A DNA stretch of 64,000 bases, from assembly GCF_963921235.1 (NCBI RefSeq), contig NC_086097.1:1860001-1924000 (forward strand). The letters are read 5' to 3'. The notes beneath the pieces are model-generated. The model was not told the origin of the DNA. It did no database searches and was given only the letters and a program-made list of their open reading frames with translations. Below, one piece after another: positions 336 to 43,081 of this stretch. Positions within the stretch are counted from its first letter, which is position 1. Each line of letters begins with the position of its first letter. The stretch is from Mobula hypostoma. Taxonomy: Eukaryota. Both the position numbers and the translations under genes were made by a program.

Positions 336-503
336 GTGTATTGGCAGTGTTGTTGGTTCTTCCACTTGTAGGTCCTCCCACTGCCAGTGGGCGGTGATAT
401 TGATCCAAACAGTTGAAAATCTGCAGATGCTGAAAATTCAAGCTTCACACATCAAAGTTGCTGGTGAATGCAGCAGGCCAGGCAGCATCTCTAGGAAGAG
501 GTA

Positions 504-541
504 CAGTCGACGTTTCAGGCCGAGACCCTTCGTCAGGACTA
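504..541 (-). ncRNA. Minimal type I hammerhead ribozyme motif (PLE 3' end)
   Basis: Minus strand reads UAGUC-CUGACGA-AGG(GUCUCGG)CCU-GAAAC-GUC-GACUG: intact core, stem II, palindromic ACGU stem III and 5-bp helix I. Confidence 0.85.
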
Positions 542-2421
542 ACTGAAGGAAGAGTGAGTAAGAGATTTGAAAGTTGGAGGGGGAGGGGGAGGGGGAGATC
601 CAAAATGATAGGAGAAGACAGGAGGGGGAGGGATAGAGCCGAGAGCTGGACAGGTGATTGGCAAAAGGGATATGAGAGGATCATGGGACAGGAGGCCCAG
701 GGACAAGGAAAAGGGGGAGGGGGAAAAACCCAGAGGATGGGCAAAGGTATAGTCAGAGGGACAGAGGGAGAAAAAGGAGAGAGAGAGAAAGAATGTGTGT
801 ATATAAATAAATAACGGATGGGGTATGAGGGGGAGGTGGGGCATTAGCGGAAGTTAGAGAAGTCAATGTTCATGCCATCAGGTTGGAGGCTACCCAGACG
901 GAATATAAGGTGTTGTTCCTCTAACCTCAGTGTGGCCTCATCTTTACATTAGAGGAGGACGTGGATAGACATATCAGAATGGGAATGGGATGTGGAATTA
1001 AAATGTGTGGCCACTGGGAGATCCTGCTTTCTCTGGCGGACAGAGCGTAGGTGTTCAGCGAAATCTCCCAGTCTGCGTCGGGTCTCGCCAATATATAGAA
1101 GGCCACATCGGGAGCACCAGATGCAGTATATCACCCCAGCCGACTCACAGGTGAAGTGTCGCCTCACCTGGAAGAACTGTCTGGGGCCCTGAATGGTGGT
1201 GAGGGAGGAAGTGTAAGGGCATGTGTAGCACTTGTTCCGCTTACAAGGATAAGTGCCAGGAGGGAGGTCAGTGGGGAGGGACGGAGGGGGGGGGGAACGA
1301 ATGGACAAGGGAGTCGCGTAGGGAGCGATCCCTGTGGAAAGCAGAGGGGGGGGGAAGGAAAGATATGCCTAGTGGTGGGATCCCGTTGGAGGTGGCGGAA
1401 GTTACTGAGAATTATATGTTGGACCCGGAGGCTGGTGGGGTGGTGGGTGAGGACCAGGGGAACCCTATTCCTCGTGGGGTGGCGGGAGGATGGAGTGAGA
1501 GCAGATGTGCGTGAAATGGGGGAGATGCGTTTGAGAGCAGAGTTGATGGTGGAGGAAGGGAAGCCCCTTTCTTTAAAAAAGGAGGACATCTCCCTCATCC
1601 TGGAATGAAAAGCCTCATCCTGAGAGCAGATGCGGTGGAGACGGAGGAATTGTGAGAAGGGGATGGTATTTTTGCAAGAGACAGGGTGAGAAGAGGAATA
1701 GTCCAGATAGCTGTGAGAGTCAGTAGGCTTATAGTAGACATCAGTGGATAAGCTGTCTCCAGAGATAGAGACAGAAAGATCTAGAAATGGGAGGGAGGTG
1801 TCGGAAATGGACCAGGTAAACTTGAGGGCAGGGTGAAAGTTGGAGGCAAAGTTAATAAAGTCAACGAGCTCAGCATGCGTGCAGGAAGCAGCGCCAATGC
1901 AGTCATCGATGTAGCGAAGGAAAAGTGGGGGACGGATACCAGAATAGGTACGGAACATAGATTGTTCCACAAAGCCAACAAAAAGGCAGGCATAGCTAGG
2001 ACCCATACGGGTGCCCATAGCTACACCTTTAGTTTGGAGGAAATGGGAGGAGCCAAAGGAGAAATTATTAAGTGTAAGGACAAATTCTGCTAGACGGAGC
2101 AGAGTGGTGGTAGAGGGGAACTGGTTCGGTCTGGAATCAAAAAAGAAGCAGAAAGCTTTGAGACCTTCCTGATGGGGGATGGGAGTATATAGGGACTGGA
2201 CATCCATGGTGAAAATAAAGCGGTGGGGGCCAGGGAACTTAAAATCATCGAAAAGTTTAAGAGCCTGAGAAGTGCCATGAACATAGGTAGGAAGATATTG
2301 AACAAGGGGGGATAAGACAGTGTCAAGGTATGCAGAAATGAGTTCGGTGGGGTAGGAGCAAGCTGAGACAATAGGTCTGCCAGGACAGGCAGGTTTGTGG
2401 AACTTGGGTAGGAGGTAGAAA

Positions 2422-2451
2422 CCTCGGGATCAATAAAGTATGACTATGACT
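2422..2451 (+). mobile_element. 30-bp Rex1-family 3' tail insertion inside the PLE
   Basis: GGGATCAATAAAGTATGACTATGACT is the reverse complement of the Rex1 tail at 29506-29531; PLE sequence resumes after it. Confidence 0.7.
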
Positions 2452-2519
2452 AAATGGGAAGTGCGGAGTGTGACCCTCCCATCACCAGTGGGCGGTGATA
2501 TTGGTCCAAACAGTTGAAA

Positions 2520-14370: not shown

Positions 14371-16658
14371 ACATGGAAAACCTATAGCATAATACAAGCC
14401 CTTCGGTCCATGATGCTGTGCCAAAGATATACTTACCTTAGAAATTACTAGGGTTACCCATAGCCCTCTATTTTTCTGAGCTCCATGTACCTGTCCAGGA
14501 GTCTCTTAAAAGACCATATCATATCCGCCTCCACCACCGTCGGCAGCCCATTCCACACACTCACCACTCTCTGTGTAAAAAAACTTACCCCGACATCTCC
14601 TCTGTACCTACTTCCAAGCATCTTAAAACTGTGCCTTCTCGTGATAGCCATTTCAGCCCTGGGAAAAAGCCTCTGACTATCCACACAATTAATGCCTCTC
14701 ATCATCTTGTACACCTCTATCAGGTCTCATCTCATCCTCCATTGCTGCAAGGAGAAAAGGCCAAGTTCACTCAACCTATTCTCACAAGGCATGCTCCCCA
14801 ATCCAGGCAACGTCCTTGTAAATCTTCTCTGCACCCTTTCTATAGTTTCCACATCCTTCAAAGATGTGATAACAGCACATTTGGAAAGCGGTGAAATCAT
14901 CGGACAAAGTCAGCATGGATTTGTGAAAGGAAAATCATGTCTGACGAATCTCATAGAATTTTTTGAGGATGTAACTAGTAGAGTGGATAGGGGAGAAGCA
15001 GTGGATGTGGTATATTTGGATTTTCAAAAGGCTTTTGACAAGGTCCCACACAGGAGATTAGTGTGCAAACTTAAAGCACACGGTATTGGGGGTAAGGTAT
15101 TGATGTGGATGGAGAATTGGTTAGCAGACAGGAAGCAAAGAGTGGGAATAAACGGGACCTTTTCAGAATGGCAGGCGGTGACTAGTGGGGTACCGCAAGG
15201 CTCAGTGCTGGGACCCCAGTTGTTTACAATATATATTAATGACTTGGATGAGGGAATTAAATGCAGCATCTCCAAGTTTGCGGATGACACGAAGCTGGGT
15301 GGCAGTGTTAGCAGTGAGGAGGATGCTAAGAGGATGCAGGGTGACTTGGATAGGTTGGGTGAGTGGGCAAATTCATGGCAGATGCAATTTAATGTGGATA
15401 AATGTGAAGTTATCCACTTTGGTGGCAAAAATAGGAAAACAGATTATTATCTGAATGGTGGCCGATTAGGAAAAGGGGAGGTGCAACGAGACCTGGGTGT
15501 CATTATACACCAGTCATTGAAAGTGGGCATGCAGGTACAGCAGGCGGTGAAAAAGGCGAATGGTATGCTGGCATTTATAGCGAGAGGATTCGAGTACAGG
15601 AGCAGGGAGGTACTACTGCAGTTGTACAAGGCCTTGGTGAGACCACACCTGGAGTATTGTGTGCAGTTTTGGTCCCCTAATCTGAGGAAAGACATCCTTG
15701 CCATAGAGGAAGTACAAAGAAGGTTCACCAGATTGATTCCTGGGATGGCAGGACTTTCATATGAAGAAAGACTGGATGAACTGGGCTTGTACTCATTGGA
15801 ATTTAGAAGATTGAGGGGGATCTGATTGAAACGTATAAAATCCTAAAGGGATTGGACAGGCTAGATGCAGGAAGATTGTTTCCGATGTTGGGGAAGTCCA
15901 GAACGAGGGGTCACAGTTTGAGGATAAAGGGGAAGCCTTTTAGGACCAAGATGAGGAAAAACTTCTTCACACAGAGAGTGGTGAATCTGTGGAATTCTCT
16001 GCCACAGGAAACAGTTGAGGCCAGTTCATTGGCTATATTTAAGAGGGAGTTAGATATGGCCCTTGTGGCTATGGGGATCAGGGGGTATGGAGGGAAGGCT
16101 GGGGCGGGGTTCTGAGTTGGATGATCAGCCATGATCATAATAAATGGCGGTGCAGGCTCGAAGGGCCGAATGGCCTACTCCTGCACCTATTTTCTATGTT
16201 TCTATGTTTCCTGTAGTGAGGTGACCAGAACTGAGCACAGTACTCCAAGTGGGGTCTGACCAGGGTCCTATATAGCTGGAACATTACCTCTCGATTCCTA
16301 AACTCAATCCCACAGTTGATGAAGGCCAATACACCGTATGCTTTCTTAACTACAGAGTCAACCTGCGCAGCTGCTTTGAGCGTCCTATGGACTCAGACCC
16401 CAAGATCCCTCTGATCCTCCACACTGCCAAGAGTCTTACCATTAATACTATATTCTGCCATCATATTTCACCTACCAAAATGAACCACCTCACACTTCTG
16501 GGTTGAACTCCATCTGCCACTTCTCAGCCCAGTTTTGCATCCTATCAATGTCCCACTGTAACTTCTGACAGCCCTCCACACTTTCCACAACACCCCCAAC
16601 ATTTGTGTCATCAGCAAATTTACTAACCCATCCCTCCACTTCCTCATCCAGGTCATTT
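14371..16658 (-). mobile_element. Older CR1 3' fragment, split by the young CR1 at 14860-16210
   Basis: CCACATCCTTC (ends ~14860) is continued by CTGTAGTGAGGTGACCAG (16211); CR1 peptides on both sides. Confidence 0.85.
14860..16210 (+). mobile_element. Young 5'-truncated CR1 LINE (RT domain intact, one frameshift near 15815)
   Basis: ORF 14692-15825 '[14 protein letters not shown]...[13 protein letters not shown]...[10 protein letters not shown]...KFADDTKL'; (TTTCTATG)n tail. Confidence 0.95.
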
Positions 16659-16741
16659 AGTCAAGTCAAGTCACTTTTTATTGTCATTTTGACCATAACT
16701 GCTGGTACAGAACATAGTAAAAATGAGACAATGTTTTTCAG

Positions 16742-17275
16742 GCAACATACATCAAAGTTGCTGGTGAACGCAGCAGGCCAAGCAGCATCTATAGGAGGGG
16801 GAGGGGGAGATGAGTCAAAATGTGGTCGAAAAGTTGAAGAGCCGAAGAAATTATAGATGGGGAGCAGTGAGAGATGGTTTCACTGAACTCCCGTCGAAGA
16901 GAGGATCTAAACTTCTTCGGTGTAGGCATCACCGGAAGAGGCTTCGCAGTAGTGAATTTAAACGCAAACAACAGGAATTCTGCAGATGCTGAAAATTCAA
17001 GCAACATACATCAAAGTTGCTGGTGAACGCAGCAGGCCAAGCAGCATCTATAGGAAGAGGCGCAGTCGACGTTTCAGGCTGAGACCCTTCGTCAGGACTA
17101 ACTGAAGGAAGAGTGAGTAAGGGATTTGAAAGCTGGAGGGGGAGGGGGAGATGAGTCAAAATGTGGTCGAAAAGTTGAAGAGCCGAAGAAATTACAGATG
17201 GGGAGCAGTGAGAGATGGTTTCACTGAACTCCCGTCGAAGAGAGGATCTAAACTTCTTCGGTGTAGGCATCACCG
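16742..17275 (-). mobile_element. Non-autonomous Penelope-derived mini-element, ~1.6 tandem copies of a 341-bp unit
   Basis: 16810-16935 is repeated at 17151-17276 and 16742-16795 at 17001-17054; contains PLE pLTR sequence and a hammerhead. Confidence 0.8.
17063..17100 (-). ncRNA. Minimal hammerhead ribozyme motif
   Basis: UAGUC-CUGACGA-AGG(GUCUCAG)CCU-GAAAC-GUC-GACUG. Confidence 0.85.
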
Positions 17276-17394
17276 GACCATGGTACTACATGAAACAATA
17301 CAAAAACTACACTGAACTACGTAAAATTACACTAGACTACAGACCTACCCAGGACTGCATAAAGTGCACAAAACAGTGCAGACATTACAATAAA

Positions 17395-17924
17395 TGTTGT
17401 TCGTCCATCGTTGACGTCGATGAGGACCTCGACACCATTATCATGGTGTCAAGACTAGCGCGTGATTTGGATTTAAGTGAGGGAGAGTTGCGCAGTGTCA
17501 GCCTCACTCTCTCTTCCCAATTCCCATCTGGATCCAGTGGCAAGACAGAGTCTAGACGGCTGGAGATGGGACTAGGCGCAGTGGATGACCAGGACGTCTT
17601 CTGTGTCTTGTCCTGCTCTACACGTTCCACGATGCTTGCAGAGACCGCCTTCTTGACCGTTGGACCTTCCATAGGTCTCGTCCGCTCAATCCACCGGAGT
17701 CTGTCTTCACATGCTGGGATAGACAACTCCCTATCTCACCGAGGGTTTAAGACCCGTCAGCTACCCTCACCTGGTTTAGCCGGCTTGTCGAAGCCGTTGC
17801 CCGGGGTGTGGCTGCTGTCGCATGCAAACAGCTACGGGGAGCCACAGGTGAGAGCTGAGTGCCAGGTGGGGACCAAAGGTGGACGAACCGCCCTGAAAAG
17901 GACGCGACATGTTCCCCTACCAGA
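17395..17924 (-). mobile_element. Non-autonomous RTE/BovB-type short element, copy 1
   Basis: Colinear with 54601-55150; AAC-type tail; 3' stem-loop; structured 5' region. Confidence 0.75.
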
Positions 17925-20900
17925 CAATAGGCACAGTAGAGGGCAGTAGGTTGGTGTCAGTCCAGGCTCTGGGTATTGAGGAGTCTGATGGCTTGGGGGA
18001 AGAAACTGTTGTACAGTCTGGTCGTGAGAGCCCGAATGCTTTGGTGCCTTTTGCCAGATGGCAGGAGAGAGAAGAGTTTGTATGAGGGGGGCGTGGGGTC
18101 TTTCACAATGCTGTTTGCTTTACGGATGCAGCGTGTGGTGTAAATGTCTGTAATGGCAGGAAGAGAGACCCTGATGATCTCAGCTGACCTCACTATCCGC
18201 TGCAGGGTCTTGCGATCCGAGATGGTGCAATTTCTGAACCAGGCAGTGATGCAGCTGCTCAGGATGCTCTCAATACAACCTCCGTTGAATGTGGTGAGGA
18301 TGGGGGGTGGGAGATGGACTTTTCTCAGCCTTCGCAGAAAGTAGAGACGCTGCTGGGCTTTCTTTGCTATGGAGCTGGTGTTGAGGGACCAGATGAGATT
18401 CTCCGCCAGGTGAACACCAAGAAATTCGGTGCTCTTAACGATCTCAACAGAGGAGATGTCTATGTTCAGCGGAGAGTGGTCACTCCGTGTCCTCCTGAGG
18501 TCAACAACCATCTCTTTTGTTTTGTTCACATTCAGAGACAGGTTGTTGACTCTGCACCAGTCCGTTAGCCGCTGCATCTCCTCTCTGTATGCTGACTCAT
18601 CGTTCTTGCAGATGAGACCCGCCATGGTTCTGTCATCAGCGAACTTGATGATGTGATTCGAGCTGTGTGTTGCAACACAGTCGTGGGTCAGCAGAGTGAA
18701 CAGCAGTGGACTGAGCACACAGCCCTGGGGGTCCCCGTGCTCAGTGTGATGGTGTTGGAGATGCTGCTCCCGATCTGGACTGACTGAGGTCTCCCAGTCA
18801 GGATGTCTAGGATCCCATTGCAGAGGGAGGTGTTCAGGCCCAGCAGGCTCAGCTTTCCAATCAGTTTCTGAGGAATGATTGTGTTGAATGCTGAACTGAA
18901 GTCTATGAACAGCATTTGAACGAACGTGTCTTTTTTGTCCAGGTGGGTTAAGGCCAGGTGGAGGGTGATGGCGACGGCGTTGTCTGTTGAACGGTTGGGA
19001 CGGTACGCGAACTGCAGGGGGTCCAGTGAGGGGGGCAGCAGGGTCTTGATGTGCCTCATGATGAGCCTCTCGAAACACTTCATGATGTTGGATGTGAGTG
19101 AACGGGACGGTAGTCGTTGAGGCAGGACACTGAAGACTTCTTCGGCACGGGGACGATGGTGGTAGCCTTGAAGCACGTTGGAACAACGGCGCTGCTCAGG
19201 GAGATGTTGAAGATGTCAGTGAGAATCTCAGCTAGCTGGTCTGCACATCCTCTGAGCACTCTGCCAGGAATATTGTCTGGTCCAGCAGCCTTCCGTGGGT
19301 TGACCCTGCACAGGGTTCCCCTCACATCGGCCACGGTAAGACACAGCACCTGGTCATTTGGAGGAGGGGTGGTCTTCCTCGCCGCCACGTCATTTTCCAC
19401 CTAAGAACGAGTGTAGAAGTTGTTCAACGCAACTGGGAGGGAGGCATCACCAGCACAGGCAGGTGTTGTCGTCTTGTAGTTGGTGATGTCCTGAATGCCC
19501 TTCCACATGCGCCGTGTGTCTCCACTGTCCTGGAAGTGGCTGTGGATTCGCTGGGCGTGTGCACGCTTTGCCTCTCTGATGGCCCGGGGCAATTTGGCCC
19601 TCGCTGTTGTTAGGGCTGTCTTGTCTCCTGCTCTGAAGGCGGAGTCACGGGTCCTCAGCAGCGCACGCACCTCCGCGGTCATCCAAGCGAAGCCCTGCTG
19701 TCTGCCATATCGCTTGATTTCACTTTGTAGGAGGTGCCCTGCCACTGTCAGGCATCCCTCGTTGATTCAGGCGTGGTCTGGAATCTCCACCTCGCCCATG
19801 AGGTGGCTTTCCGGGTAGCATGCCTGTACTTCTTGTAGCTTTCTTGGTCTCCAGAGTTGAATTCCTGGCATCTGGCTGTCAGCACCATTGGGAATGGTTA
19901 CTCCTTTCCTGTAGTTGATGGTGCTGCATTACAAATAGCTCGTAGAATGCAGAGCATCAGCTCTTTAACAGCGCCACTGAAACCGTGACTCCTGTCTGCT
20001 AATCATGACATTGATCGTATTGGTGAGGGAATTGAATCAACGCCAAGTCAAAGACCATTCTCATTTGGATGTGTTGCTTGGTCAGATTTCTAGGACTTAA
20101 AATGAGGTCATTGCAGGATATCGTAAGTTTCAGTGCTATGTGGCCATCTGTAAAATAAACTGCAGCAGTTTGTAAAGTAGAGTTCTGGCCATGTTATGTT
20201 TGGAGAATGAACTATTAAAGTCAACCTTCAATACACCTAAACCGTTAACATGTAGTTTTCACTGCCTCAGAGGACTGACCATGGGTTTGTATTCTAGCTG
20301 TCTGTTGATATGCTGTGCAATATGGAGAGCAAATTGCTAGCCACGTAGCTGATGAATCCAAAGGAACAGCAGAGAATCATACAGTCTGGCACCAGCAGTG
20401 TCGCAGGAGCTGCCAGTCAACATAGGACACCAGCTCTGGATTTTTCCCTTGCTTTACATCCAAAATCTTTTCTGTGAGTGGGTGTAGCGACAAGGCAGTG
20501 GAGGTTTAAGATCAGAGTTTCTTTCTCCCTTTCCAAGATTCAAAGTGCATATGCAGTAGACAACCCTGAGATTTATCTTTCTACAGACAGCCACGAAACA
20601 AAGAATATCGTGGATCCTGTTGAAAGAAGACGTATCAAACCCCCAATGTGCAAAAAAAACCACCAATAAAAACAGAAGCAAAACCCGCAGAATATAAAAT
20701 AGCAAACCACAAGTCATCAGAAGAGTTGAGGAATATTTATCTCAGTTCAGTCCAGCGCATTGTCGTCTCTGGAGTTCAGGCCGCAGAATCAGTCCAGCTA
20801 GACCAAAACCGCACAAAGCTGCAACGAAAAAGGGGTGAACAGAAATCAGAAACACATCATAACGCCAACTTACAGAGTACAATCCACCAACAGGGTCACT

Positions 20901-20954: not shown

Positions 20955-23900
20955 AGTGAGAGAGAGACCGGACACACGCAGGCACTTTCCTCCAGGAACA
21001 GCGAGAGTGAGAGGGACCGGACACACACAGGCACCTTCCTCCAGGAACAGCGAGAGGGAGAGAGACCGGACACACGCAGGGACTTTCCTCCAGGAACAGC
21101 GAGAGGGAGAGAGACAGGACACACGCGGGCACCTTCCTCCAGGAACAGCGAGAGGGAGAGAGACCGGACACACGCAGGCACCTTCCTCCAGGAACAGCGA
21201 GAGGGAGAGAGACCGGACACACGCAGGCACCTTCCTCCAGAACAGTGAGAGGGAGAGAGAGACCGGACACACACAGGCACCTTCCTCCAGAACAGCGAGA
21301 GGGAGAGAGAGACCGGACACACGCAGGCACCTTCCTCCAGAACAGTGAGAGGGAGAGAGAGACCGGACACACGTGGGCACCTTCCTCCAGAACAGCGAGA
21401 GGGAGAGAGACCGGACACACACAGGCACCTTCATCCAGGAACAGCGAGAGGGAGAGAGACCGGACACACGCAGGCACTTTCCTCCAGGAACAGCGAGAGG
21501 GAGACAGACCGGACACACGTGGGCACCTTCCTCCAGAACAGCGAGAGGGAGAGAGACCGGACACACGCAGGCACTTTCATCCAGGAACAGCGAGAGGGAG
21601 ACAGACCGGACACACGCAGGCACCTTCCTCCAGGAACAGCGAGAGGGAGAGAGACCGGACACACGCAGGCACCTTCCTCCAGGAACAGCGAGAGGGAGAC
21701 AGACCGGACACACGTGGGCACCTTCCTCCAGGAACAGCGAGAGGGAGAGAGACCGGACACACGCAGGCACCTTCCTCCAGGAACAGCGAGAGGGAGAGAG
21801 AGACCGGACACACGCAGGCACCTTCCTCCAGGAACAGCGAGAGGGAGAGAGAGACCGGACACACGCAGGCACTTTCCTCCAGAACAGTGAGAGGGAGAGA
21901 GACCGGACACACGCAGGCACCTTCCTCCAGAACAGCGAGAGGGAGAGAGACCGGACACACGCAGGCACCTTCCTCCAGAACAGCGAGAGGGAGACAGACC
22001 GGACACACGCAGGCACCTTCCTCCAGAACAGCGAGAGGGAGAGAGACCGGACACACACAGGCACTTTCCTCCAGAACAGCGAGGGGGAGAGAGACCGGAC
22101 ACACACAGGCACTTTTCTCCAGGAACAGCGAGAGGGAGAGAGACCGGACACACGCAGGCACTTTCCTCCAGAACAGCGAGAGGGAGAGAGACCGGACACA
22201 CGCAGGCACCTTCCTCCAGAACAGCGAGAGGGAGAGAGACCGGACACACGCAGGCACTTTCCTCCAGAACAGCGAGAGGGAGAGAGAGACCGGACACACA
22301 CAGGGACTTTCCTCCAGGAACAGCGAGAGGGAGAGAGACCGGACACACGCAGGCACTTTCCTCCAGGAACAGCGAGAGGGAGAGAGAGACCGGACACACG
22401 CAGGCACCTTCCTCCAGAACAGCGAGAGGGAGAGAGACCGGACACACGCAGGCACCTTCCTCCAGGAACAGCGAGAGGGAGAGAGACCGGACACACGCAG
22501 GCACTTTCCTCCAGAACAGCGAGAGGGAGAGAGACCGGACACACGCAGGCACTTTCCTCCAGAACAGCGAGAGGGAGAGAGACCAGACACACGCGGGCAC
22601 CTTCCTCCAGAACAGCGAGAGGGAGAGAGACCGGACACACGCAGGCACCTTCCTCCAGAACAGCGAGAGGGAGAGAGACCGGACACACGCAGGCACCTTC
22701 CTCCAGGAACAGCGAGAGGGAGAGAGAGACCGGACACACGCAGGCACCTTCCTCCAGAACAGCGAGAGGGAGAGAGAGACCGGACACACGCAGGCACCTT
22801 CCTCCAGAACAGCGAGAGGGAGAGAGACCGGACACACACAGGCACCTTCCTCCAGGAACAGTGAGAGGGAGAGAGACCGGACACACACAGGCACTTTCCT
22901 CCAGGAACAGCGAGAGGGAGAGAGACCAGACACACGCGGGCACCTTCCTCCAGGAACAGTGAGAGGGAGAGAGACCAGACACACGCAGGCACTTTCCTCC
23001 AGGAACAGCGAGAGGGAGAGAGACCAGACACACGCGGGCACCTTCCTCCAGGAACAGCGAGAGGGAGAGAGAGACCGGACACACGCAGGCACCTTCCTCC
23101 AGAACAGCGAGAGGGAGAGAGACCGGACACACGCAGGCACCTTCCTCCAGAACAGCGAGAGGGAGAGAGACCGGACACACGCAGGCACCTTCCTCCAGAA
23201 CAGCGAGAGGGAGAGAGACCGGACACACGCAGGCCCCTTCCTCCAGAACAGCGAGAGGGAGAGAGAGACCGGACACACACAGGCACTTTCCTCCAGGAAC
23301 AGTGAGAGGGAGAGAGACCGGACACACACAGGCACTTTCCTCCAGAACAGCGAGAGGGAGAGAGACCGGACACACGCAGGCACCTTCCTCCAGAACAGCG
23401 AGACGGAGAGAGACCGGACACACGCAGGCACCTTCCTCCAGAACAGCGAGAGGGAGAGAGACCGGACACACGCGGGCACCTTCCTCCAGGAACAGCGAGA
23501 GGGAGAGAGAGACCGGACACACGCAGGCACCTTCCTCCAGAACAGCGAGAGGGAGAGAGACCGGACACACGCAGGCACCTTCCTCCAGAACAGCGAGAGG
23601 GAGAGAGACCGGACACACGCAGGCACCTTCCTCCAGAACAGCGAGAGGGAGAGAGACCGGACACACGCAGGCACCTTCCTCCAGAACAGCGAGAGGGAGA
23701 GAGAGACCGGACACACACAGGCACTTTCCTCCAGGAACAGTGAGAGGGAGAGAGACCGGACACACACAGGCACTTTCCTCCAGAACAGCGAGAGGGAGAG
23801 AGACCGGACACATGCGGGCACTTTCCTCCAGAACAGCGAGAGGGAGAGAGACCGGACACACGCAGGCACCTTCCTCCAGGAACAGCGAGAGGGAGAGAGA

Positions 23901-26900
23901 GACCGGACACACACAGGCACTTTCCTCCAGGAACAGTGAGAGGGAGAGAGACCGGACACACGCGGGCACCTTCCTCCAGAACAGCGAGAGGGAGAGAGAG
24001 ACCGGACACACACAGGCACTTTCCTCCAGGAACAGTGAGAGGGAGAGAGACCGGACACACACAGGCACTTTCCTCCAGAACAGCGAGAGGGAGAGAGACC
24101 GGACACACGCAGGCACCTTCCTCCAGGAACAGCGAGAGGGAGAGAGAGACCGGACACACACAGGCACTTTCCTCCAGGAACAGTGAGAGGGAGAGAGACC
24201 GGACACACGCGGGCACCTTCCTCCAGGAACAGTGAGAGGCAGAGAGACCGGACACACGCAGGCACCTTCCTCCAGGAACAGCGAGAGGGAGAGAGACCGG
24301 ACACACGCAGGCACTTTCCTCCAGGAACAGTGAGAGGGAGAGAGACCGGACACACGCGGGCACCTTCCTCCAGGAACAGCGAGAGGGAGAGAGACCGGAC
24401 ACACGCGGGCACCTTCCTCCAGGAACAGTGAGAGGGAGAGAGACCGGACACACGTGGGCACTTTCCTCCAGGAACAGCGAGAGGGAGAGAGACCAGACAC
24501 ACACAGGCACTTTCCTCCAGGAACAGCGAGAGGGAGAGAGACCAGACACACGCAGGCACCTTCATCCAGGAACAGCGAGAGTGAGAGAGACCGGACACAC
24601 GCAGGCACTTTCCTCCAGGAACAGCGAGAGGGAGAGAGACCGGACACACGCAGGCACCTTCCTCCAGGAACAGCGAGAGGGAGAGAGACCGGACACACGC
24701 AGGCACCTTCCTCCAGGAACAGTGAGAGGGAGAGAGACCGGACACACGTGGGCACTTTTCTCCAGGAACAGCGAGAGGGAGAGAGACCGGACACACACAG
24801 GCACTTTCCTCCAGGAACAGCGAGAGGGAGAGAGACCAGACACACGCAGGCACCTTCATCCAGGAACAGCGAGAGTGAGAGAGACCGGACACACGCAGGC
24901 ACTTTCCTCCAGGAACAGCGAGAGGGAGAGAGACCGGACACACGCAGGCACCTTCCTCCAGGAACAGCGAGAGGGAGAGAGACCGGACACACGCAGGCAC
25001 TTTCCTCCAGGAACAGCGAGAGGGAGAGAGACCGGACACACGCGGGCACTTTCCTCCAGAACAGCGAGAGGGAGAGAGACCGGACACATGCAGGCACCTT
25101 CCTCCAGGAACAGCGAGAGGGAGAGAGACCGGACACACGTGGGCACTTTCCTCCAGGAACAGTGAGAGGGAGAGAGACCGGACACACGCAGGCACCTTCC
25201 TCCAGGAACAGCGAGAGGGAGAGAGACCGGACACATGCGGGCACTTTCCTCCAGGAACAGCGAGAGGGAGAGAGACCGGACACACGCAGGCACTTTCCTC
25301 CAGAACAGCGAGAGGGAGAGAGACCGGACACATGCGTGCACTTTCCTCCAGGAACAGCGAGAGGGAGAGAGACCGGACACATGCAGGCACCTTCCTCCAG
25401 GAACAGCGAGAGGGAGAGAGACCGGACACACGCAGGCACTTTCCTCCAGGAACAGTGAGAGGGAGACAGACCGGACACACGCAGGCACTTTCCTCTCGGG
25501 GTAGCGAGAGGGAGAGAGACCGGACACACGCGGGCACCTTCCTCCAGGAACAGCGAGAGGGAGAGAGACCGGACACATGCAGGCACTTTCCTCCAGGAAC
25601 AGCGAGAGGGAGAGAGACCGGACACACGCAGGCACTTTCCTCCAGGAACAGCGAGAGGGAGACAGACCGGACACACGCAGGCACCTTCCTCCAGGAACAG
25701 TGAGAGGCAGAGAGACCGGACACACGCAGGCACCTTCCTCCAGGAACAGTGAGAGGGAGAGAGACCGGACACACGCAGGCACCTTCCTCCAGGAACAGCG
25801 AGAGGGAGAGAGACCGGACACACGCAGGCACTTTCTTCCAGGAACAGCGAGAGGGAGAGAGACCGGACACACGCAGGCACTTTCCTCTGGGAGTAGCGAG
25901 AGGGAGAGAGACCGGACACACGCAGGCACCTTCCTCCAGGAACAGCGAGAGGGAGAGAGACCGGACACACGCAGGCACTTTCCTCCAGGAACAGCGAGAG
26001 GGAGAGAGAGACCGGACACACGCAGGCACTTTCCTCTGGGGGTAGCGAGAGGGAGAGAGACCGGACACACGCAGGCACTTTCCTCTGGGAGTAGCGAGAG
26101 GGAGAAGACCGGACACACGCAGGCACTTTCCTCCGGGGGTAGTGAGAGAGAGAGAGAGACCGGACACACGCAGGCACTTTCCTCCAGGAACAGCGAGAGG
26201 GAGAGAGACCGGACACACGCGGGCACTTTCCTCCAGGAACAGCGAGAGGGAGAGAGACAGGACACACGCGGGCACTTTCCTCCAGGAACAGCGAGAGGGA
26301 GAGAGACAGGACACACGCGGGCAGTTTCCTCCAGGAACAGCGAGAGGGAGAGAGACCGGACACACGCAGGCACTTTCCTCCAGGAACAGCGAGAGGAAGA
26401 GAGACCGGACACACGCAGGCACTTTCCTCTGGGAGTAGCGAGAGGGAGAGAGACCGGACATATGCGGGCACTTTCCTCTGTGGGTAGCGAGAGGGAGAGA
26501 GACCGGACACACGCAGGCACTTTCCTCCAGGAACAGCGAGAGTGAGAGGGACCGGACACACACAGGCACCTTCCTCCAGGAACAGCGAGAGGGAGAGAGA
26601 CCGGACACACGCAGGGACTTTCCTCCAGGAACAGCGAGAGGGAGAGAGACAGGACACACGCAGGCACTTTCCTCCAGGAACAGCGAGAGGGAGAGAGACC
26701 GGACACACGCAGGCACTTTCCTCTGGGAGTAGCGAGAGGGAGAGAGACCGGACACATGCGGGCACTTTCCTCTGTGGGTAGCGAGAGGGAGAGAGACCGG
26801 ACACACGCAGGCACCTTCCTCCAGAACAGCGAGAGGGAGAGAGACCGGACACACGCAGGCACCTTCCTCCAGGAACAGTGAGAGGGAGAGAGACCGGACA

Positions 26901-28120
26901 CACGCAGGCACCTTCCTCCAGGAACAGCGAGAGGGAGAGAGACCGGACACATGCAGGCACTTTCTTCCAGGAACAGCGAAAGGGAGAGAGACCGGACACA
27001 CGCAGGCACTTTCCTCTGGGAGTAGCGAGAGGGAGAGAGACCGGACACACGCAGGCACCTTCCTCCGGGAACAGCGAGAGGGAGAGAGACCGGACACCCG
27101 CATGCACTTTCCTCCAGGAACAGCGAGAGGGAGAGAGAGACCGGACACACGCAGGCACTTTCCTCTGGGGGTAGCGAGAGGGAGAGAGACCGGACACACG
27201 CAGGCACTTTCCTCTGGGAGTAGCGAGAGGGAGAAGACCGGACACACGCAGGCACTTTCCTCCGGGGGTAGTGAGAGAGAGAGAGAGACCGGACACACGC
27301 AGGCACTTTCCTCCAGGAACAGCGAGAGGGAGAGAGACCGGACACACGCGGGCACTTTCCTCCAGGAACAGCGAGAGGGAGAGAGACAGGACACACGCGG
27401 GCACTTTCCTCCAGGAACAGCGAGAGGGAGAGAGACAGGACACACGCGGGCACTTTCCTCCAGGAACAGCGAGAGGGAGAGAGACCGGACACACGCAGGC
27501 ACTTTCCTCCAGGAACAGCGAGAGGAAGAGAGACCGGACACACGCAGGCACTTTCCTCTGGGAGTAGCGAGAGGGAGAGAGACCGGACATATGCGGGCAC
27601 TTTCCTCTGTGGGTAGCGAGAGGGAGAGAGACCGGACACACGCAGGCACTTTCCTCCAGGAACAGCGAGAGTGAGAGGGACCGGACACACACAGGCACCT
27701 TCCTCCAGGAACAGCGAGAGGGAGAGAGACCGGACACACGCAGGGACTTTCCTCCAGGAACAGCGAGAGGGAGAGAGACAGGACACACGCGGGCACCTTC
27801 CTCCAGGAACAGCGAGAGGGAGAGAGACCGGACACACGCAGGCACTTTCCTCCAGGAACAGCGAGAGGGAGAGAGACCGGACACACGCAGGCACTTTCCT
27901 CTGGGAGTAGCGAGAGGGAGAGAGACCGGACACATGCGGGCACTTTCCTCTGTGGGTAGCGAGAGGGAGAGAGACCGGACACACGCAGGCACCTTCCTCC
28001 AGAACAGCGAGAGGGAGAGAGACCGGACACACGCAGGCACTTCCCTCCAGGAACAGCGAGAGTGAGAGAGATCGGACACACGCGGGCACCTTCCTCCAGA
28101 ACAGCGAGAGGGAGAGAGAC
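20955..28120. repeat. Minisatellite, ~7.2 kb, 48-51-bp unit (consensus GAGAGGGAGAGAGACCGGACACACGCAGGCACYTTCCTCCAGGAACAGC), about 145 copies
   Basis: Directly visible tandem array; copy number estimated as length divided by 49. Confidence 0.98.
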
Positions 28121-29507
28121 CCTTCTGGGCATCACTGAGTCGTGGCTGAAAGAAGGCCATAATTGGGAGCTGAACTTCAAAGGATATATTTTGTATCGAA
28201 AAGACGGGCAGGAAGGCGGAGACAGTGGTGTGACTCTGTTGGTACAGATGGAATTACATCTTTAGAAAGAGACGACATAAGACCAGAGAATGTTGAAACT
28301 TTGTGGGTGGAGTTTAGAAACTGCAAGGGTAAAAATACCTTTATGGGAATCATATATAGGCCTCTAAATAGTAGCCAAGATGTGGTGTTGAGATTGCAAA
28401 GGGAGCTGGAAAAGGCATTATGTTGGGGGACTTCAAAATGCAAGGGGATTGGGAAAATCACGTTGGTGTTGCATCACAAGAGAGGGAATTTGTTGAATGC
28501 TTATGAGATGGCTTTTGAGAGCAGTTTGTGCTTGAGCCTACTCTGGAAAATGCTATCTTAGATTGGGTGTTGTGTAATAACCCAGATCTTATTAGGGAGC
28601 TTAATGTAACGGAACCCTTAGGAGGCAGTGATCATAATATGATTGAATGCATACTGCAACTTAAGAGAGAGTAGCTTAAATCACATGTTTCTGTATTGTA
28701 ATGGAATAACGGGAATTATAGAGGCATGAGAGAGGAGCTTGTCCAGGTTGGTTGGAGGAGGATATTGTCAGGGATGATGGCCGAGCAGAGATGGCTGAAG
28801 TTTCTGGGAATAGTTCACAAGGCACAGGATAGATAGGTCCCACTGAAGAAAAAGTTCTCAGATGGCAGGGGTAGGCAACAATGGCTGACAAGGGAAGTTA
28901 AGGACTGCATAAAAGCCAAGGAAAGGGCACATAAGGTAGCAAAAGTGAGTGGGAAATTGGATGGTTGGGAACCTTTTAAAATCCAACTAAAGGCAATTAA
29001 AAAAAGCTATAAGAAGGGAAAAGATGAAATATGAGGGCAGATTAGCTGATAATATAAAGCAGGATACCAAAAGTTTTTTCAGTTTTATAAAGAGTAAAAG
29101 GGAGATGAGAGTTGATATTGGACCATTGGAAAATGATGCTGGTGAGGTAGTAATGGGGGACAAAGAAATGGCAGATGAACTTAATGGGTACTTTGCATCT
29201 GGCTTCACTGTGGAAGATACTCGCAGTGTGCCAGAGGTCTGAGAGTGTCAGGGAGCAGGAGTGAGTGCCTTTTCTATTACAAGGGAAAAAGTGCTCAAAT
29301 CTCTTAAGGTCAGTAAGTCACCTGGACAAGATGGACTACATCCCAGAGTCCTGAGAGAGGTTAGTGAAGAGATAATGGATTGATTGGTCATGATCTTTCA
29401 AGAATCACTTGACTCTGGCATGGTCCTGGAGGACTGGATGATTGCAAATGTCACTCCACTTTTTAAGAAGGGAGGAAGGCAAAAGAAAGGAACTTATAGG
29501 CCAGTTA

Positions 29508-32500
29508 GTCATAGTCATACTTTATTGATCCCAAGGAAAATTGGTTTTCGTTACAGTTGCACCATAAATAATAAATAGTAATAGAACCATAAATAGTTAA
29601 ATAGTAATATAGAAACATAGAAACATAGAAAATAGGTGCAAGAGTAGGCCATTCGGCCCTTCGAGCCTGCACTGCCATTTATTATGATCATGGCTGATCA
29701 TCCAACTCAGAACCCCGCCCCAGCCTTCCCTCCATACCCCCTGACCCCCGTAGCCACAAGGGCCATATCTAACTCCCTCTTAAATATAGCCAATGAATTG
29801 GCCTCAACTGTTTCCTGTGGCAGAGAATTCCACAGATTCACCACTCTCTGTGTGAAGAAGTTTTTCCTAATCTCGGTCCTAAAAGGCTTCCCCTCTATCC
29901 TCAAACTGTGTCCCCTCGTTCTGGACTTCCCCAACATCGGGAACAATCTTCCTGCATCTAGCCTGTCCAATCCCTTTAGGATCTTATACGTTTCAATCAG
30001 ATCCCCCCTCAATCTTCTAAATTCCAACAAGTACAAGCCCAGTTCATCCAGTCTTTCTTCATATGAAAGTCCTGCCATCCCAGGAATCAATCTGGTGAAC
30101 CTTCTTTGTACTCCCTCTATGGCAAAGATGTCTTTCCTCAGATTAGGGGACCAAAACTGCACACAATACTCCAGGTGTGGTCTCACCAAGGCCTTATACA
30201 ACTGCAGTAGTACCTCCCTGCTCCTGTACTCGAATCCTCTCGCTATAAATGCCAGCATACCATTCGCCTTTTTCACCGCCTGCTGTACCTGCATGCCCAC
30301 TTTCAATGACTGGTGTATAATGACACCCAGGTCTCGTTGCACCTCCCCTTTTCCTAATCGGCCACCATTCAGATAATAATCTGTTTTCCTATTTTTGCCA
30401 CCAAAGTGGATAACTTCACATTTATCCACATCAAATTGCATCTGCCATGAATTTGCCCACTCACCCAACCTATCCAAGTCACCCTGCATCCTCTTAGCAT
30501 CCTCCTCACTGCTAACACTGCCACCCAGCTTCGTGTCATCCGCAAACTTGGAGATGCTGCATTTAATTCACTCATCCAAGTCATTAATATATATTGTAAA
30601 CAACTGGGGTCCCAGCACTGAGCCTTGCGGTACCCCACTAGTCACCACCTGCCATTCTGAAAAGGTCCCGTTTATTCCCACTCTTTGCTTCCTGTCTGCT
30701 AACCAATTTTCCACCCGCACCAATACCTTACCCCCAATACCGTGTGCTTTAAGTTTGCACACTAATCTCCTGTGTGGGACCTTGTCAAAAGCCTTTTGAA
30801 AATCCAAATATACCACATCCACTGGTTCTCCCCTATCCACTCTACTAGTTACATCCTCAAAAAATTCTATGAGATTCGTCAGACATGATTTTCCTTTCGC
30901 AAATCCATGCTGACTTTGTCCGATCATTTCACCGCTTTCCAAATGTGCTGTTATCACATCCTTGATAACTGACTCCAGCAGTTTCCCCACCACCGATGTT
31001 AGGCTAACCGGTCTATAATTCCCCGGTTTCTCTCTCCCTCCTTTTTTAAAAAGTGGGGTTACATTAGCCACCCTCCAATCCTCAGGAACTAGCCCAGAAT
31101 CTAACGAGTTTTGAAAAATTATCACTAATGCATCCACTATTTCTTGGGCTACTTCCTTAAGCACTCTAGGATGCAGACCATCTGGCCCTGGGGATTTATC
31201 TGCCTTCAATCCCTTCAATTTACCTAACACCACTTCCCTACTAACATGTATTTCGCTCAGTTCCTCCATCTCACTGGACCCTCTGTCCCTTACTATTTCT
31301 GGGAGATTATTTATGTCCTCCTTAGTGAAGACAGAACCAAAGTAATTATTCAATTGGTCTGCCATGTCCTTGCTCCCCATAATCAATTCACCTGTTTCTG
31401 TCTGCAGGGGACCTACATTTGTCTTTACCAGTCTTTTCCTTTTTACATATCTATAAAAGCTTTTACAGTCTGTTTTTATGTTCCCTGCCAGTTTTCTCTC
31501 ATAATCTTTTTTCCCCTTCCTAACTAAGCCCTTTGTCCTCCTCTGCTGAACTTTGAATTTCTCCCAGTCCTCAGGTGAGCCACTTTCTCTGGCTAATTTG
31601 TATACTTCTTCTTTGGAATTGATACTATCCCTAATTTCTCTTGTCAGCCACGGGTGCACTGCCTTCCTTGATTTATTCTTTTGCCAAACTGGGATGAACA
31701 ATTGTTGTAGTTCATCCATGCAACCTTTAAATGCTTGCCATTGCATATCCACCGTCAATCCTTTAAGTGTCATTTGCCAGTCTATCTTAGCTAATTCACG
31801 TCTCATACCTTCAAAGTTACCCCTCTTTAAGTTTAGAACCTTTGTTTCTGAATTAACTATGTCACTCTCTATCTTAATGAAGAATTCCACCATATTATGG
31901 TCACTCTTACCCAAGGGGCCTCTCACGATAAGATCGCTAATTAACCCTTCCTCATTGCTCAAAACCCAGTCCAGAATAGCCTGCTCTCTAGTTGGTTCCT
32001 CAACATGTTGGTTCAAAAAACCATCCCGCATACATTCCAAGAAATCCTCTTCCTCAGCACCTTTACCAATTTGGTTCACTTATGTTGAAAAGTGGCCCTT
32101 TTTAATGCTTGCCCTGGATTTGTCAGCCTGCCACTTTTACTTTTCTCCTTTGTACCTTTTGCTTCTACCCTCACTTTACACCCCTCTGTCTCTCTGCACT
32201 GGTTCCCATCCCTCTGTTGTGAACTAACCTCCTCACGCCTAGCCTCTTTAATTTGATTCCCACCCCCCAACCGTTCCAGTTTAAAGTCACCTCAGTAGCC
32301 CCCGCTAATCTCCCTGCCAGGATATTGGTCCCCCTATGTAAATATGTAAATTATGCCAGTAAATTATGAAACAAGTCCAGGACCAGCCTATTGGCTCAGG
32401 ATGTCTGACCCTCCAAGGGAGGAGTTGTAAAGTTTGATGGCCACAGGCAGGAATGACTTCCTACGACGCTCTGTGCTGCATCTTGGTGGAATGAGTCTCT

Positions 32501-37550: not shown

Positions 37551-37822
37551 TAAACGTAACTTTGCTGGATCAAATAACAACAGCACAAAAAGATCATTAC
37601 TTATCTTTTCACCTGTTTATTTCTTCGAGCTCAGCTGGCGAGTGAACTTGGACCCGACATCCGGGAGAGACCCTTTCTCATCTCCCCGGCGGTTCTACAA
37701 GTTCACTGCCCAATGTCCGAATTGTCAGAAGTTATAAGGCCACCAATACAAAAGAACAATCAGTTTGATAACCATTCCGGTCAAGTCAGTGGACTATTGA
37801 TTCAGAGAACAATCAGTTTGAT

Positions 37823-38282
37823 CGCAAACAACAGGAATTCTGCAGATGCTGGAAATTCAATCAACACACATCAAAGTTGCTGGTGAACGCAGCAGGCCAA
37901 GCAGCATCTATAGGAAGAGGTGCAGTCGACGTTTCAGGCCGAGACCCTTCGTCAGGACTAACTGAAGGAAGAGTGAGTAAGGGATTTGAAAGTAGGAGGG
38001 GGAGGGGAATATCCAAAATGATAGGAGAAGACAGGAGGGGGAGGGATAGAGCCGAGAGCTGGACAGGTGATAGGCAAAAGGGGATACGAGAGGATCATGG
38101 GACAGGAGGTCTGGGAAGAAAGACGGGGGGGGTGACCCAGAGGATGGGCAAGAGGTATATTCAGAGGGACAGAGGGAGAAAAAGGAGAGTGAGAGAAAGA
38201 ATGTGTGCATAAAAATGAGTAACAGATGGGGTACGAGGGGGAGGTGGGGCCTTAGCGGAAGTTAGAGAAGTCAATGTTCATG
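37823..38282 (-). mobile_element. Penelope-like 3' fragment with 13-bp TSD
   Basis: Matches 421-875; CAATCAGTTTGAT at 37810-37822 and 38283-38295. Confidence 0.9.
37923..37960 (-). ncRNA. Minimal hammerhead ribozyme motif
   Basis: Identical to the motif at 504-541. Confidence 0.85.
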
Positions 38283-39179
38283 CAATCAGTTTGATAACCA
38301 TTCCGGCCAAGTCAATAGACTATTGATACAGAGAACAATCAGTTTGATAACCATTCCGGCCAAGTCAATGGACTATTGATACAAAAGTACAATCAATTTG
38401 TTGGACACTCCAGCCACCTTAATTAAAGAAAGAAATGTCCTACCTGGTTTGCTGGAGCCACAACTTAATTACAAAGATAAGAACATCCGTCAAATTTATG
38501 CTTTAATTAAGAAAGGAATGTTCTGTCTAATTTCCATTAGGTACTGCTTTTTGTCAAAATCAAAAGGTGTGAAAAGCCCAGAGACATCTATGTGGATCTG
38601 GGCGAACTTTAATCATCTTGCTCCAAAGAAGGCAGCTGTGAGACATTATTCAAACACACTGCAGTCACAGACATAGTCAGTTCCGAATCCATTGTTTACA
38701 GGAATCTTGAGAATCCCCCATTCCCTTAAACTTCATCACAAGTACCCCAAACCTTTATTCTTAATAATCAACTCCAATATCTTCCCAACCACTGAGGTCA
38801 GGCTAACTGGTCTATAATTTCCTTTCTTTTGCTTCCTCCCTTTTTGAAGAGTGGAGTGACATTTGCAATTTTCCAGTCCTCTGGAGCTATGCCAGAGTCA
38901 ATTGATTCTTGAAAGATCATTAATATGCCTCCACCGTCTCTTCGGTCACCAGTTTCAGGACTCTGGGGTGTAGACCATTTAGTCCAGGTCATTTATCTAT
39001 CTTCAGACCTTTCAGTTTCCCAAGAACCTTCTCTCCAGTAATGGCAATTTCATACACTTCTAACCCCTGACACTCTGGAGTTCCAGCAGGCTGCCACAGT
39101 CTTCCACAGTGAAAACTGATGCAAAATACTTATTCAGTTTATCTGCCAATCCTTATCTCCCATTACTACCTCTCCAGCA

Positions 39180-41710: not shown

Positions 41711-42275
41711 CCCAGGGGGAAATGATAGGAAGGTGAGAAGAGCTAAAATATGAAATGGTCCTATTTGTCGATTTATTATACAGTGCATTCCCGTTAATTG
41801 GGACCAGTCGGGACCAGTATATTTTGGCCCAATTCAGTGGCTGCCTCAATTAGCAGAGGTTTCATGGAAGTAGTTAAAAAGGCATAAAAAAGGCAAACTA
41901 TCATTGAACTCAGTAACAAATAATGTATTAAATCTAAAATTTATTATCAGAGTGCTTACACATCTCCACATACTGCCCTGAGTGGGGAATATGGTGAGAG
42001 GGGTTGCATTTGTTTACTGGAAGAGTAGTCAGTAATCATGCCATCAAGTTGGAAGGTACCCAGATGGAATATAAGCTGTTGCTCCTCCACCCTGAGGGTG
42101 GCACGAGAGAAGGCTTTGGAAATGAGAATGGGAATCGGAATTAAAATGTTTGGCCACCAGCTTTGTTTCATATCAACTAATTAAGGTGTGTGTGGATTGT
42201 CAGTTTGTGGACTAAGATGTGCTTTTTGTTCTTTTGTTATCAGGTCATGTTATAAATCTTTGATCTCAGTTCAGA

Positions 42276-42861: not shown

Positions 42862-43081
42862 GTAAGAAAAAGTTTCAATGAAAACAAATTATTGTTTACT
42901 AATTTTCTATACACAATTTCAGTTATGCAGATAGAACGTTTTATGGATGTATTTTCTTTAGAGATACAGCAAAGAAGAGCTCCTTCGAGTCCACTGAATC
43001 GTACCGTGCAGCAACCCGCCTGTTTAAGCCTGGCCTAATCACAGGACAGTGATTAGGCCAGGCTTAAATAGTGTAGGTAGT

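What the first reader, a model, noticed from the sequence alone, without database searches (positions are those of the whole stretch)
16742..17275. Retrozyme-like 341-bp tandem mini-element derived from a Penelope-like element
Seen: the unit length is 341 bp (ATGAGTCAAAA at 16810 and 17151). On the minus strand each unit reads C-rich 3' tract, hammerhead, pLTR end, short leader, then 'MPTPKKFRSSLRREFSETISHC...', fused straight back to the C-rich tract. The insert starts and ends mid-unit (permuted), and the second hammerhead is removed by an ~82-bp deletion near 16795. Known: animal non-LTR retrozymes are 170-400-nt hammerhead-bearing tandem repeats that yield circular RNAs and are thought to be mobilised by PLEs. 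Inference: this is an internally deleted PLE copied from a circular or multimeric RNA, possibly a retrozyme at its origin.
Basis: partly seen in the sequence, partly recalled or inferred. Interest (0 to 1): 0.7.

Follow-up and report, generated by a model that had tools for sequence, protein, structure and literature searches.

The report
Gutted Penelope element copied in tandem
This 534-base insert is a Penelope-type jumping gene that lost almost all of its coding part and was then re-copied about 1.8 times head-to-tail into a new site; it looks like the raw material of a ribozyme-circle element (retrozyme), but it keeps only one ribozyme and no circle or family was shown.

Summary
MPTPKK... 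is the N-terminus of a Neptune-type PLE ORF. The ORF-start/3'UTR deletion junction occurs twice, base-identical, so it was in the template before insertion: a gutted PLE (SIDE-like) was most likely mobilised in trans. The 'permuted' ends are not special: the 3' end is the family's ordinary tail-less end (shared with the copy at 50209), and partial tandems are the normal PLE insertion form. Circle versus linear multimer or strand transfer cannot be told from this locus. The locus fails the published retrozyme criterion (two consecutive hammerhead units). No genome was held, so copy number of the junction is untested; no listed contig piece spanned it (0 of 32 shown of about 149,500), which proves nothing. 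A second, older gutted PLE lies in the same window. New member of a known kind; modest interest.

The parts
16742..17275 (-). Whole insert, 534 bp: gutted PLE in partial tandem
   Evidence: empty-site joint 16740->17275 in 4 of 4 runs
17271..17277 (-). 5' truncation 5-7 nt upstream of the ATG; 3-nt microhomology (GGA, 17275-17277) with the host, no clear TSD (at most GG)
17152..17270 (-). First 119 nt of the PLE ORF (39 codons plus 2 nt), copy 1
   Evidence: register with PLE N-termini; X14 contig 16 matches 17152-17274 with 1 difference and runs on 124 letters
17151..17153 (-). ORF/3'UTR deletion junction, copy 1 (1-nt overlap at 17152; CATTTTG stands just upstream in both parents)
   Evidence: loose ends at 17152/17153 in X1, X9, X14; window copies
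17108..17152 (-). C-rich 3'UTR tract of the pLTR
   Evidence: 95% identical to the PLE copy at 37817-38007
17063..17100 (-). Minimal type I hammerhead: stem I 5 bp, CUGACGA, bulged A, 4-bp stem II, GAAA, palindromic CG, UC; predicted cut between 17068 and 17067
   Evidence: (-7.7 kcal/mol for the drawn fold; it is not the MFE); PMC4209133
17001..17020 (-). Short stem-loop whose 3' base is the tail-less end (site 1) of the family
   Evidence: fold; same end in unit 2 (16742) and in the copy at 50209
16963..17000 (-). Optional ~38-nt PLE tail (site 1 to site 2)
   Evidence: copy at 37817 ends at site 2, copy at 50209 at site 1; PMC8557442, PMC11167929
16930..16962 (-). 33-nt leader before the ATG
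16811..16929 (-). First 119 nt of the PLE ORF, copy 2 (1 substitution versus copy 1)
16794..16811 (-). Second ORF/3'UTR junction (16811) and C-rich stub up to the 82-bp deletion (GGA microhomology, 16794-16796) that removes the second hammerhead
16742..16796 (-). 3' end of the insert, ending at site 1; the host end TTCAGG can pair with the template over 6 nt (one G-U)
16659..16741 (-). Host: 3' end of a Rex1-like LINE, same orientation as the insert
   Evidence: LINE ORF 17957-19195 has RVT_1 and ALKBH8_N matches; the label Rex1 is recalled
17276..17395 (-). Host LINE 3' UTR upstream of the insert
   Evidence: joints; loose end at 17395 matches window ~17921

Best explanation
A Neptune-type PLE lost nearly its whole ORF (about 3 kb, inferred from relatives of 900 aa) by one deletion joining ORF nt 119 to the 3'UTR, leaving a 341-nt unit that keeps the pLTR, the hammerhead and the reverse-transcription start sites. 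An RNA bearing this unit was picked up in trans by the family's RT-endonuclease, primed on a nick in a LINE 3' UTR at the usual tail-less start site, and copied for 1.8 units, as PLEs normally copy themselves into partial tandems (linear multimeric donor, or in-register strand transfer through the pLTR; a circle is possible but not needed). The first-copied hammerhead was skipped or later deleted. The result is a dead-end, one-hammerhead copy of a SIDE-like non-autonomous PLE. Shown: anatomy, parent family, ends, double junction. Inferred: RNA intermediate, trans-mobilisation, a donor locus.
For: Double base-identical junction. Tail plus leader (16930-17000) lies only between the two units, so duplicating a linear one-unit insert in place cannot supply it. 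Both units share a T at 17007/16748 where all 3 close window copies and about 85% of X1 contig depth have C. 3' end equals that of the independent copy at 50209 and lies one ~38-nt tail from that of the copy at 37817, matching the optional tail and internal RT starts of PMC8557442 and PMC11167929. Target end pairs with the template over 6 nt; 5' microhomology without TSD as for Pen2 in PMC3846280. Units differ at 1 of about 198 compared bases: recent, one template. Non-autonomous PLEs with head-to-tail copies are described (MRC1, PMC8557442). A second gutted PLE with a different junction lies at 50057-50203 plus 51439-51842.
Against: No donor or sibling was found: no genome held; 0 of 32 listed contig pieces span the junction (table cut from about 149,500); 0 of 3 protein hits cross the fusion point; no look-alike in earlier notes. 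The mechanistic paper concerns a Poseidon element whose start sites lie inside the ORF, not a Neptune element. The 82-bp deletion is in one unit only and its timing is unknown.
Confidence: 0.58

Rival explanations
1. Nascent retrozyme: a donor of the form pLTR + gutted unit has two hammerheads 341 nt apart, which cleave as a dimer; the monomer is ligated into a 341-nt circle and PLE RT rolls round it 1.8 times.
For: 341 nt is in the 170-400 nt range and GC is 48% (PMC7229834). Core and palindromic stem III are intact. The unit runs on seamlessly through site 1 into a second turn. PMC4209133 proposes circles as the source of PLE tandems; Li et al. 2026 derive retrozymes from pLTRs. The circular fold is somewhat more stable than shuffles (-73.9 versus -65.3 +/- 4.5 kcal/mol, 3 of 100 reach it).
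Against: One hammerhead at this locus. Minimal hammerheads cleave weakly even as dimers (PMC4209133); 8 of 9 predicted retrozyme dimers did not cleave (Li et al. 2026); hammerhead mutants did not affect PLE insertion in vitro (PMC11167929). Only 53% of bases pair in the circular fold. A seamless second turn is also expected from a multimer or strand transfer. In run X14 the bin just inside the ORF (depth 98.6) is almost all one contig that continues as the intact ORF (96.3), so the junction is not the main form there (contigs drop rare forms).
Confidence: 0.2
2. One-off, no donor: both junctions arose in one event or locus, either by RT jumping twice at the same CATTTTG-guided hotspot while copying full-length RNA, or by deletion in a normal pLTR-ORF-pLTR insert followed by local duplication and trimming.
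For: CATTTTG stands next to the breakpoint in both parents; microhomology deletions are common in PLEs (PMC3846280); no sibling was seen (all weak); an earlier unverified note calls a 278-nt gutted copy a rare by-product (e1-7814458).
Against: The junction is 3 nt out of register with the shared heptamer, yet identical in both units; the local route needs a deletion, a duplication and a 5' trim that happens to restore the host site with no loss (one search shows the host rejoined exactly).
Confidence: 0.15
3. The host LINE's own RT switched onto the small PLE RNA 83 nt after starting and switched back, so insert and LINE arrived together.
For: Insert and LINE are co-oriented, the insert is near the LINE 3' end, and both junctions have microhomology.
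Against: The entry point is exactly the PLE's own start site; the return loses no host base; other copies of the LINE are empty here (8 of 15 listed joints are empty-site joints).
Confidence: 0.04
4. Assembly artefact.
For: No listed read or contig spans the stretch; the best run holds 0.70 of 56 sampled words.
Against: The units differ by a substitution and a microhomology-bounded deletion, ends match biological sites, and the host is cleanly split; short-word contigs cannot span high-copy repeats.
Confidence: 0.03

Closest known systems
Short internally deleted elements (SIDEs) of non-LTR retrotransposons, e.g. Persaeus/Zenon (PMC6740152, passages read) and R2 SIDEs (as cited in PMC6765202, passages read)
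   Same: 5' start fused to the 3' end of the parent with the ORF gone, about 300 bp, short repeats near the breakpoint, depends on the parent's RT
   Different: Parent is a PLE; insert is a partial tandem; copy number unknown, whereas Persaeus has hundreds to tens of thousands of copies
Non-autonomous PLEs with pLTRs and head-to-tail copies (MRC1 and other Chlamys derivatives; PMC8557442, passages read)
   Same: Non-coding PLE derivative, similar to the parent at the 3' end, head-to-tail insertion
   Different: Neptune-type animal parent with a hammerhead; keeps the ORF start; not shown to be a family
Animal non-LTR retrozymes (PMC7229834, passages read; Li et al. bioRxiv 10.64898/2026.07.22.740005, parts 1-3 of 5 read, supplements closed)
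   Same: Unit size, GC under 50%, type I hammerhead, tandem form, pLTR origin; mean chondrichthyan consensus 363 bp in Li et al.
   Different: One hammerhead only; minimal rather than canonical motif (Cervera ties retrozymes to canonical ones, Li et al. admit both); carries the ORF start; no circle shown; no long TSD
Ordinary EN+ PLE partial tandems with optional 30-40 bp tail (PMC8557442 passages; PMC11167929 parts 1-2 of 4 read; PMC3846280 passages)
   Same: Full unit preceded by a 5'-truncated unit, tail-less 3' end, microhomology 5' junction
   Different: The unit is 341 bp instead of about 3.3 kb and the same deletion is in both units

Membership tests
Neptune-type EN+ PLE (parent) | One ORF with RT then C-terminal GIY-YIG endonuclease, followed by the pLTR | tested here: met
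   Window copies 406-2460 and 50209-51430 align to full-length RT+GIY-YIG proteins P0004/P0005/P0025 and carry the same 3'UTR at 89-91%. No complete parent is in the window.
Neptune-type EN+ PLE (parent) | CX2-5CxxC linker between RT and EN (absent in Penelope/Poseidon) | tested here: met
   CKRNKCYTC in ORF 50615-51136; criterion from PMC8557442. No tree was built.
Neptune-type EN+ PLE (parent) | MPTPKK segment is the ORF N-terminus | tested here: met
   Ungapped score against 31 of 120 relatives that had the anchor motif: -0.2 versus shuffles -31.0 +/- 6.8, 0 of 2000, best of 30 registers (register chosen after seeing P0005/P0012); phmmer alone only E=0.027; contigs leave the stretch at the junction and run on.
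PLE minimal hammerhead (PMC4209133) | CUGANGA, bulged base, stem II, GAAA, palindromic 15.2-16.2, UH, short stem I | tested here: met
   10.1-11.1 is G-U rather than the usual G-C
PLE minimal hammerhead (PMC4209133) | Self-cleavage as a dimer | not testable with these tools
   needs in vitro transcription
Animal non-LTR retrozyme | At least two consecutive units each with a complete hammerhead | tested here: not met
   1 core in the insert; criterion from Li et al. 2026
Animal non-LTR retrozyme | Unit 150-450 bp, GC under 50%, non-coding | tested here: met
   341 bp, 48% GC; only a fused 113-codon frame with no Pfam match
Animal non-LTR retrozyme | Dispersed multi-copy family | tested here: inconclusive
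   no genome; contig tables cut
Animal non-LTR retrozyme | Expressed as linear and circular monomer RNA | not testable with these tools
   only contigs, no raw RNA reads
Animal non-LTR retrozyme | Highly self-paired circle | tested here: inconclusive
   53% paired, 3 of 100 shuffles as stable
SIDE (short internally deleted element) | 5' and 3' ends of an autonomous parent joined by an internal deletion | tested here: met
SIDE (short internally deleted element) | Retrotransposed after the deletion (more than one locus) | tested here: inconclusive
   inferred from the doubled junction and PLE-type ends; no second locus seen

The most novel reading that the evidence does not exclude
The insert is the footprint of a retrozyme being born in a cartilaginous fish: one deletion brought two PLE hammerheads within 341 nt, the monomer was cut out and circularised, and PLE RT copied the circle by rolling. 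It would give a route to retrozymes (ORF deletion, with the parent's start codon still aboard) distinct from local amplification of a solo pLTR, and, if circles are proven, direct support for circles as the template of PLE tandems. The first-copied hammerhead is deleted 12 nt short of its cut site, which could record RT meeting a cleaved template.
Probability: 0.2. Interest if true: 0.62.

Novelty: new member of a known kind. Interest (0 to 1): 0.33.

Why it matters
How PLEs make their partial tandems (circle, multimer or strand transfer) and how retrozymes arise from PLEs are open questions. A very short, young, gutted unit with a unique junction is a convenient marker: its siblings can be counted, its donor found and its RNA tested for circularity without the background of the huge parent family. 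As a single dead insertion it changes nothing; gutted PLEs with other junctions appear to recur in this genome.

Tried and rejected
Genome-wide junction count: no genome held. Rfam: no match at gathering score in the window; the 8 weak matches in 16600-17500, including UnaL2 and CRISPR-DR32, are below threshold and rejected. Unconstrained folds do not give the hammerhead shape, as expected without stem III. Search of the 41-residue N-terminus among proteins of 73-2000 aa: 1 candidate, none scored. The fused 113-aa frame against 1.84 billion representatives: 3 hits, two to the 3'UTR frame (both leave it right at site 1), one a low-complexity repeat, none across the fusion. JGI metagenomes: 0 matches for an ORF-start pattern and for a hammerhead pattern. 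Sequencing runs: no RNA holder on record; this says nothing on expression. Word shares (0.70 in X1) cannot resolve the junction: junction words are 110 of 514 distinct 31-mers, ORF/UTR-only words 29 of 514, about 3 of 56 sampled. Depth sums are not copy numbers. Splicing as origin of the junction rejected: no GT/AG at the known 3' edge on either strand. Hammerhead cleavage as origin of the junction rejected: the cut site is 85 nt away. Earlier notes by sequence or words: nothing. Literature: no paper holds Penelope + elasmobranch + hammerhead ribozyme (one search of the held library); Li et al. did include one chondrichthyan and their supplements, which could list this family, were closed.

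Full report
Observation. The window is repeat-rich animal DNA; earlier notes call the genome a ray or cartilaginous fish, which I did not test. No whole genome was held. The insert is as described. ATGAGTCAAAA stands at 16810 and 17151 only. The sequence repeats at lag 341 over 16794-16936 with one mismatch and at lag 259 over 16742-16796, so the left unit lacks exactly 82 bp, bounded by GGA microhomology. The junction 20-mer occurs twice, against 0.01 expected. Contigs from 4 of 4 public runs join 16740 to 17275, i.e. other copies of the host repeat are empty at this site and the insert is 534 bp (8 of the 15 joints listed, of 103, are of this type). The host is the 3' UTR of a co-oriented LINE whose ORF at 17957-19195 has RVT_1 and ALKBH8_N matches ('Rex1-like' is my recalled label).

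Parent. The 3' part matches PLE ends elsewhere in the window: 37817-38007 (95%), 406-591 (91%), 50209-50366 (89%), 51646-51839 (74%). The copies at 406-2460 and 50209-51430 align to full-length RT + GIY-YIG proteins, and the linker CKRNKCYTC fits the CX2-5CxxC finger that Penelope/Poseidon lack (PMC8557442, passages), so Neptune-type; no tree was built. MPTPKK... is the ORF start. It is in register with relatives that begin MPTLRT (P0005, P0012); an ungapped score over 31 of 120 relatives gave -0.2 against -31.0 +/- 6.8 for shuffles, 0 of 2000 as high, best of 30 registers (I chose the register after seeing those two proteins, and phmmer alone reached only E=0.027). Independently, a contig of run X14 matches 17152-17274 with one difference and runs on for 124 other letters, and similar pieces leave at 16811 (X5) and 16814 (X9), while loose ends at 17152/17153 in X1, X9 and X14 give the normal 3'UTR. 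So ORF nt 119 is fused to the C-rich 3'UTR with 1 nt of overlap; CATTTTG lies just upstream of the break in both parents, 3 nt out of register.

Hammerhead. 17063-17100 holds a complete minimal type I motif with the palindromic CG of the dimer type; the drawn fold scores -7.7 kcal/mol and is the same in 3 other window copies. It is not the minimum-energy fold and Rfam does not see it. Such motifs are described in metazoan PLEs and cleave only weakly, as dimers (PMC4209133, parts 1-2 of 4 read). The insert has one core.

Ends. The 3' end (16742) is the same base at which the independent copy at 50209 ends, at the foot of a small stem-loop; the copy at 37817 ends about 38 nt further on. That is the optional 30-40 bp tail of PLEs (PMC8557442), explained in vitro by two internal RT start sites (PMC11167929, parts 1-2 of 4 read; a Poseidon element, so an analogy). 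Two database proteins that contain this 3'UTR frame also leave it there. The host end can pair with the template over 6 nt with one G-U. The 5' end is a truncation 5-7 nt before the ATG with 3 nt of microhomology and no clear TSD, as reported for Pen2 (PMC3846280, passages). Read in the direction of cDNA synthesis, the insert starts at the usual site, makes one full turn of the 341-nt unit (less the 82-bp skip) and 275 nt of a second.

Mechanism. Two base-identical junctions cannot be independent. Tail and leader occur only between the units, so duplicating a one-unit insert in place cannot produce the structure. Both units share a T at 17007/16748 where the 3 close window copies and about 85% of X1 contig depth have C, and they differ at 1 of about 198 bases. 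The simplest reading is that the deletion was already in the RNA and that the family's enzyme copied it in the ordinary PLE manner, a full unit preceded by a 5'-truncated unit (PMC8557442). This implies a gutted donor mobilised in trans (0.58). Whether the RNA was a circle, a linear multimer, or two molecules bridged through the pLTR is not recorded in the locus, since all three give a seamless second turn. A donor of the form pLTR + gutted unit would hold two hammerheads 341 nt apart and could in principle release a circle (0.2); the circular fold is mildly stable (3 of 100 shuffles; 53% paired). Against this, hammerhead mutants did not affect insertion in vitro and 8 of 9 predicted retrozyme dimers failed to cleave. 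A one-off origin through a jump hotspot or several local events remains possible (0.15). The 82-bp deletion begins 12 nt short of the predicted cut (17055 versus 17067/8); it may be an RT skip over the ribozyme fold or over a cleaved template, or later DNA loss. This is speculation from one case.

Family or single copy. Not settled. Of 32 contig pieces listed (about 149,500 laid) none spans the junction, but the list keeps the longest pieces and junction contigs would be short. In X14 the bin just inside the ORF has summed depth 98.6, of which 96.3 is the contig that continues as intact ORF, and the matching bin of the other unit has 13.6, so the junction is at most a minor form in that organism; contigs drop rare forms and these sums are not copy numbers. 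Word shares cannot resolve it. Protein, metagenome and earlier-note searches were blank.

Comparison and verdict. It works like a SIDE (PMC6740152, passages; PMC6765202, passages) made from a PLE, and resembles non-autonomous head-to-tail Chlamys elements. It is not a retrozyme by the criterion of two consecutive hammerhead units (Li et al. 2026, parts 1-3 of 5 read), and the circular RNA that defines retrozymes (PMC7229834, passages) was not testable. That retrozymes derive from PLE pLTRs is already in print, including a count in one chondrichthyan; the supplements of that preprint were closed and may list this family. One search found no paper with Penelope, elasmobranch and hammerhead ribozyme together. 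The finding is real and well read, a new member of a known kind, with value mainly as a clean test case. Interest 0.33.

Noticed in passing
window 50057-50203 and 51439-51842 (+): A second, older internally deleted PLE: ORF start fused to the end of the endonuclease region, then 3'UTR with a decayed hammerhead; split by a younger, opposite-strand 5'-truncated PLE at 50209-51430.
   Followed up: partly
window 406-2460 (-), 37817-38293 (-), 49680-49817 (-), 2501-2705, 42022-42157: Further PLE copies or scraps; 3 of them plus the insert keep an intact hammerhead core. The copy at 37817 sits in a short ~53-bp tandem repeat.
   Followed up: partly
window 17395-17920: A second insertion in the same LINE 3' UTR, beginning with (GTT)n, with a 96% copy at 54615 onwards; empty-site loose ends in X5 and X9. 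Family not identified.
   Followed up: no
window 20960-28121: A 7-kb array of a 49-bp unit, 146 copies, with higher-order variants and long open frames on both strands.
   Followed up: no
window 42264-42881 (+): Open frame starting MSWFADLAG that looks like the first coding exon of golgin A5 (label recalled; the Atlas search gave no name). The insert would lie about 25 kb upstream on the other strand.
   Followed up: partly
P0121 and P0122: Two database gene models contain this PLE's hammerhead region in frame and leave it at the tail-less end: exonised or mis-predicted PLE ends.
   Followed up: no
window 14858-16210 and 29612-30965: A 97-98% identical LINE fragment pair in inverted orientation 13-14 kb apart, flanking the insert and the 49-bp array.
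   Followed up: no
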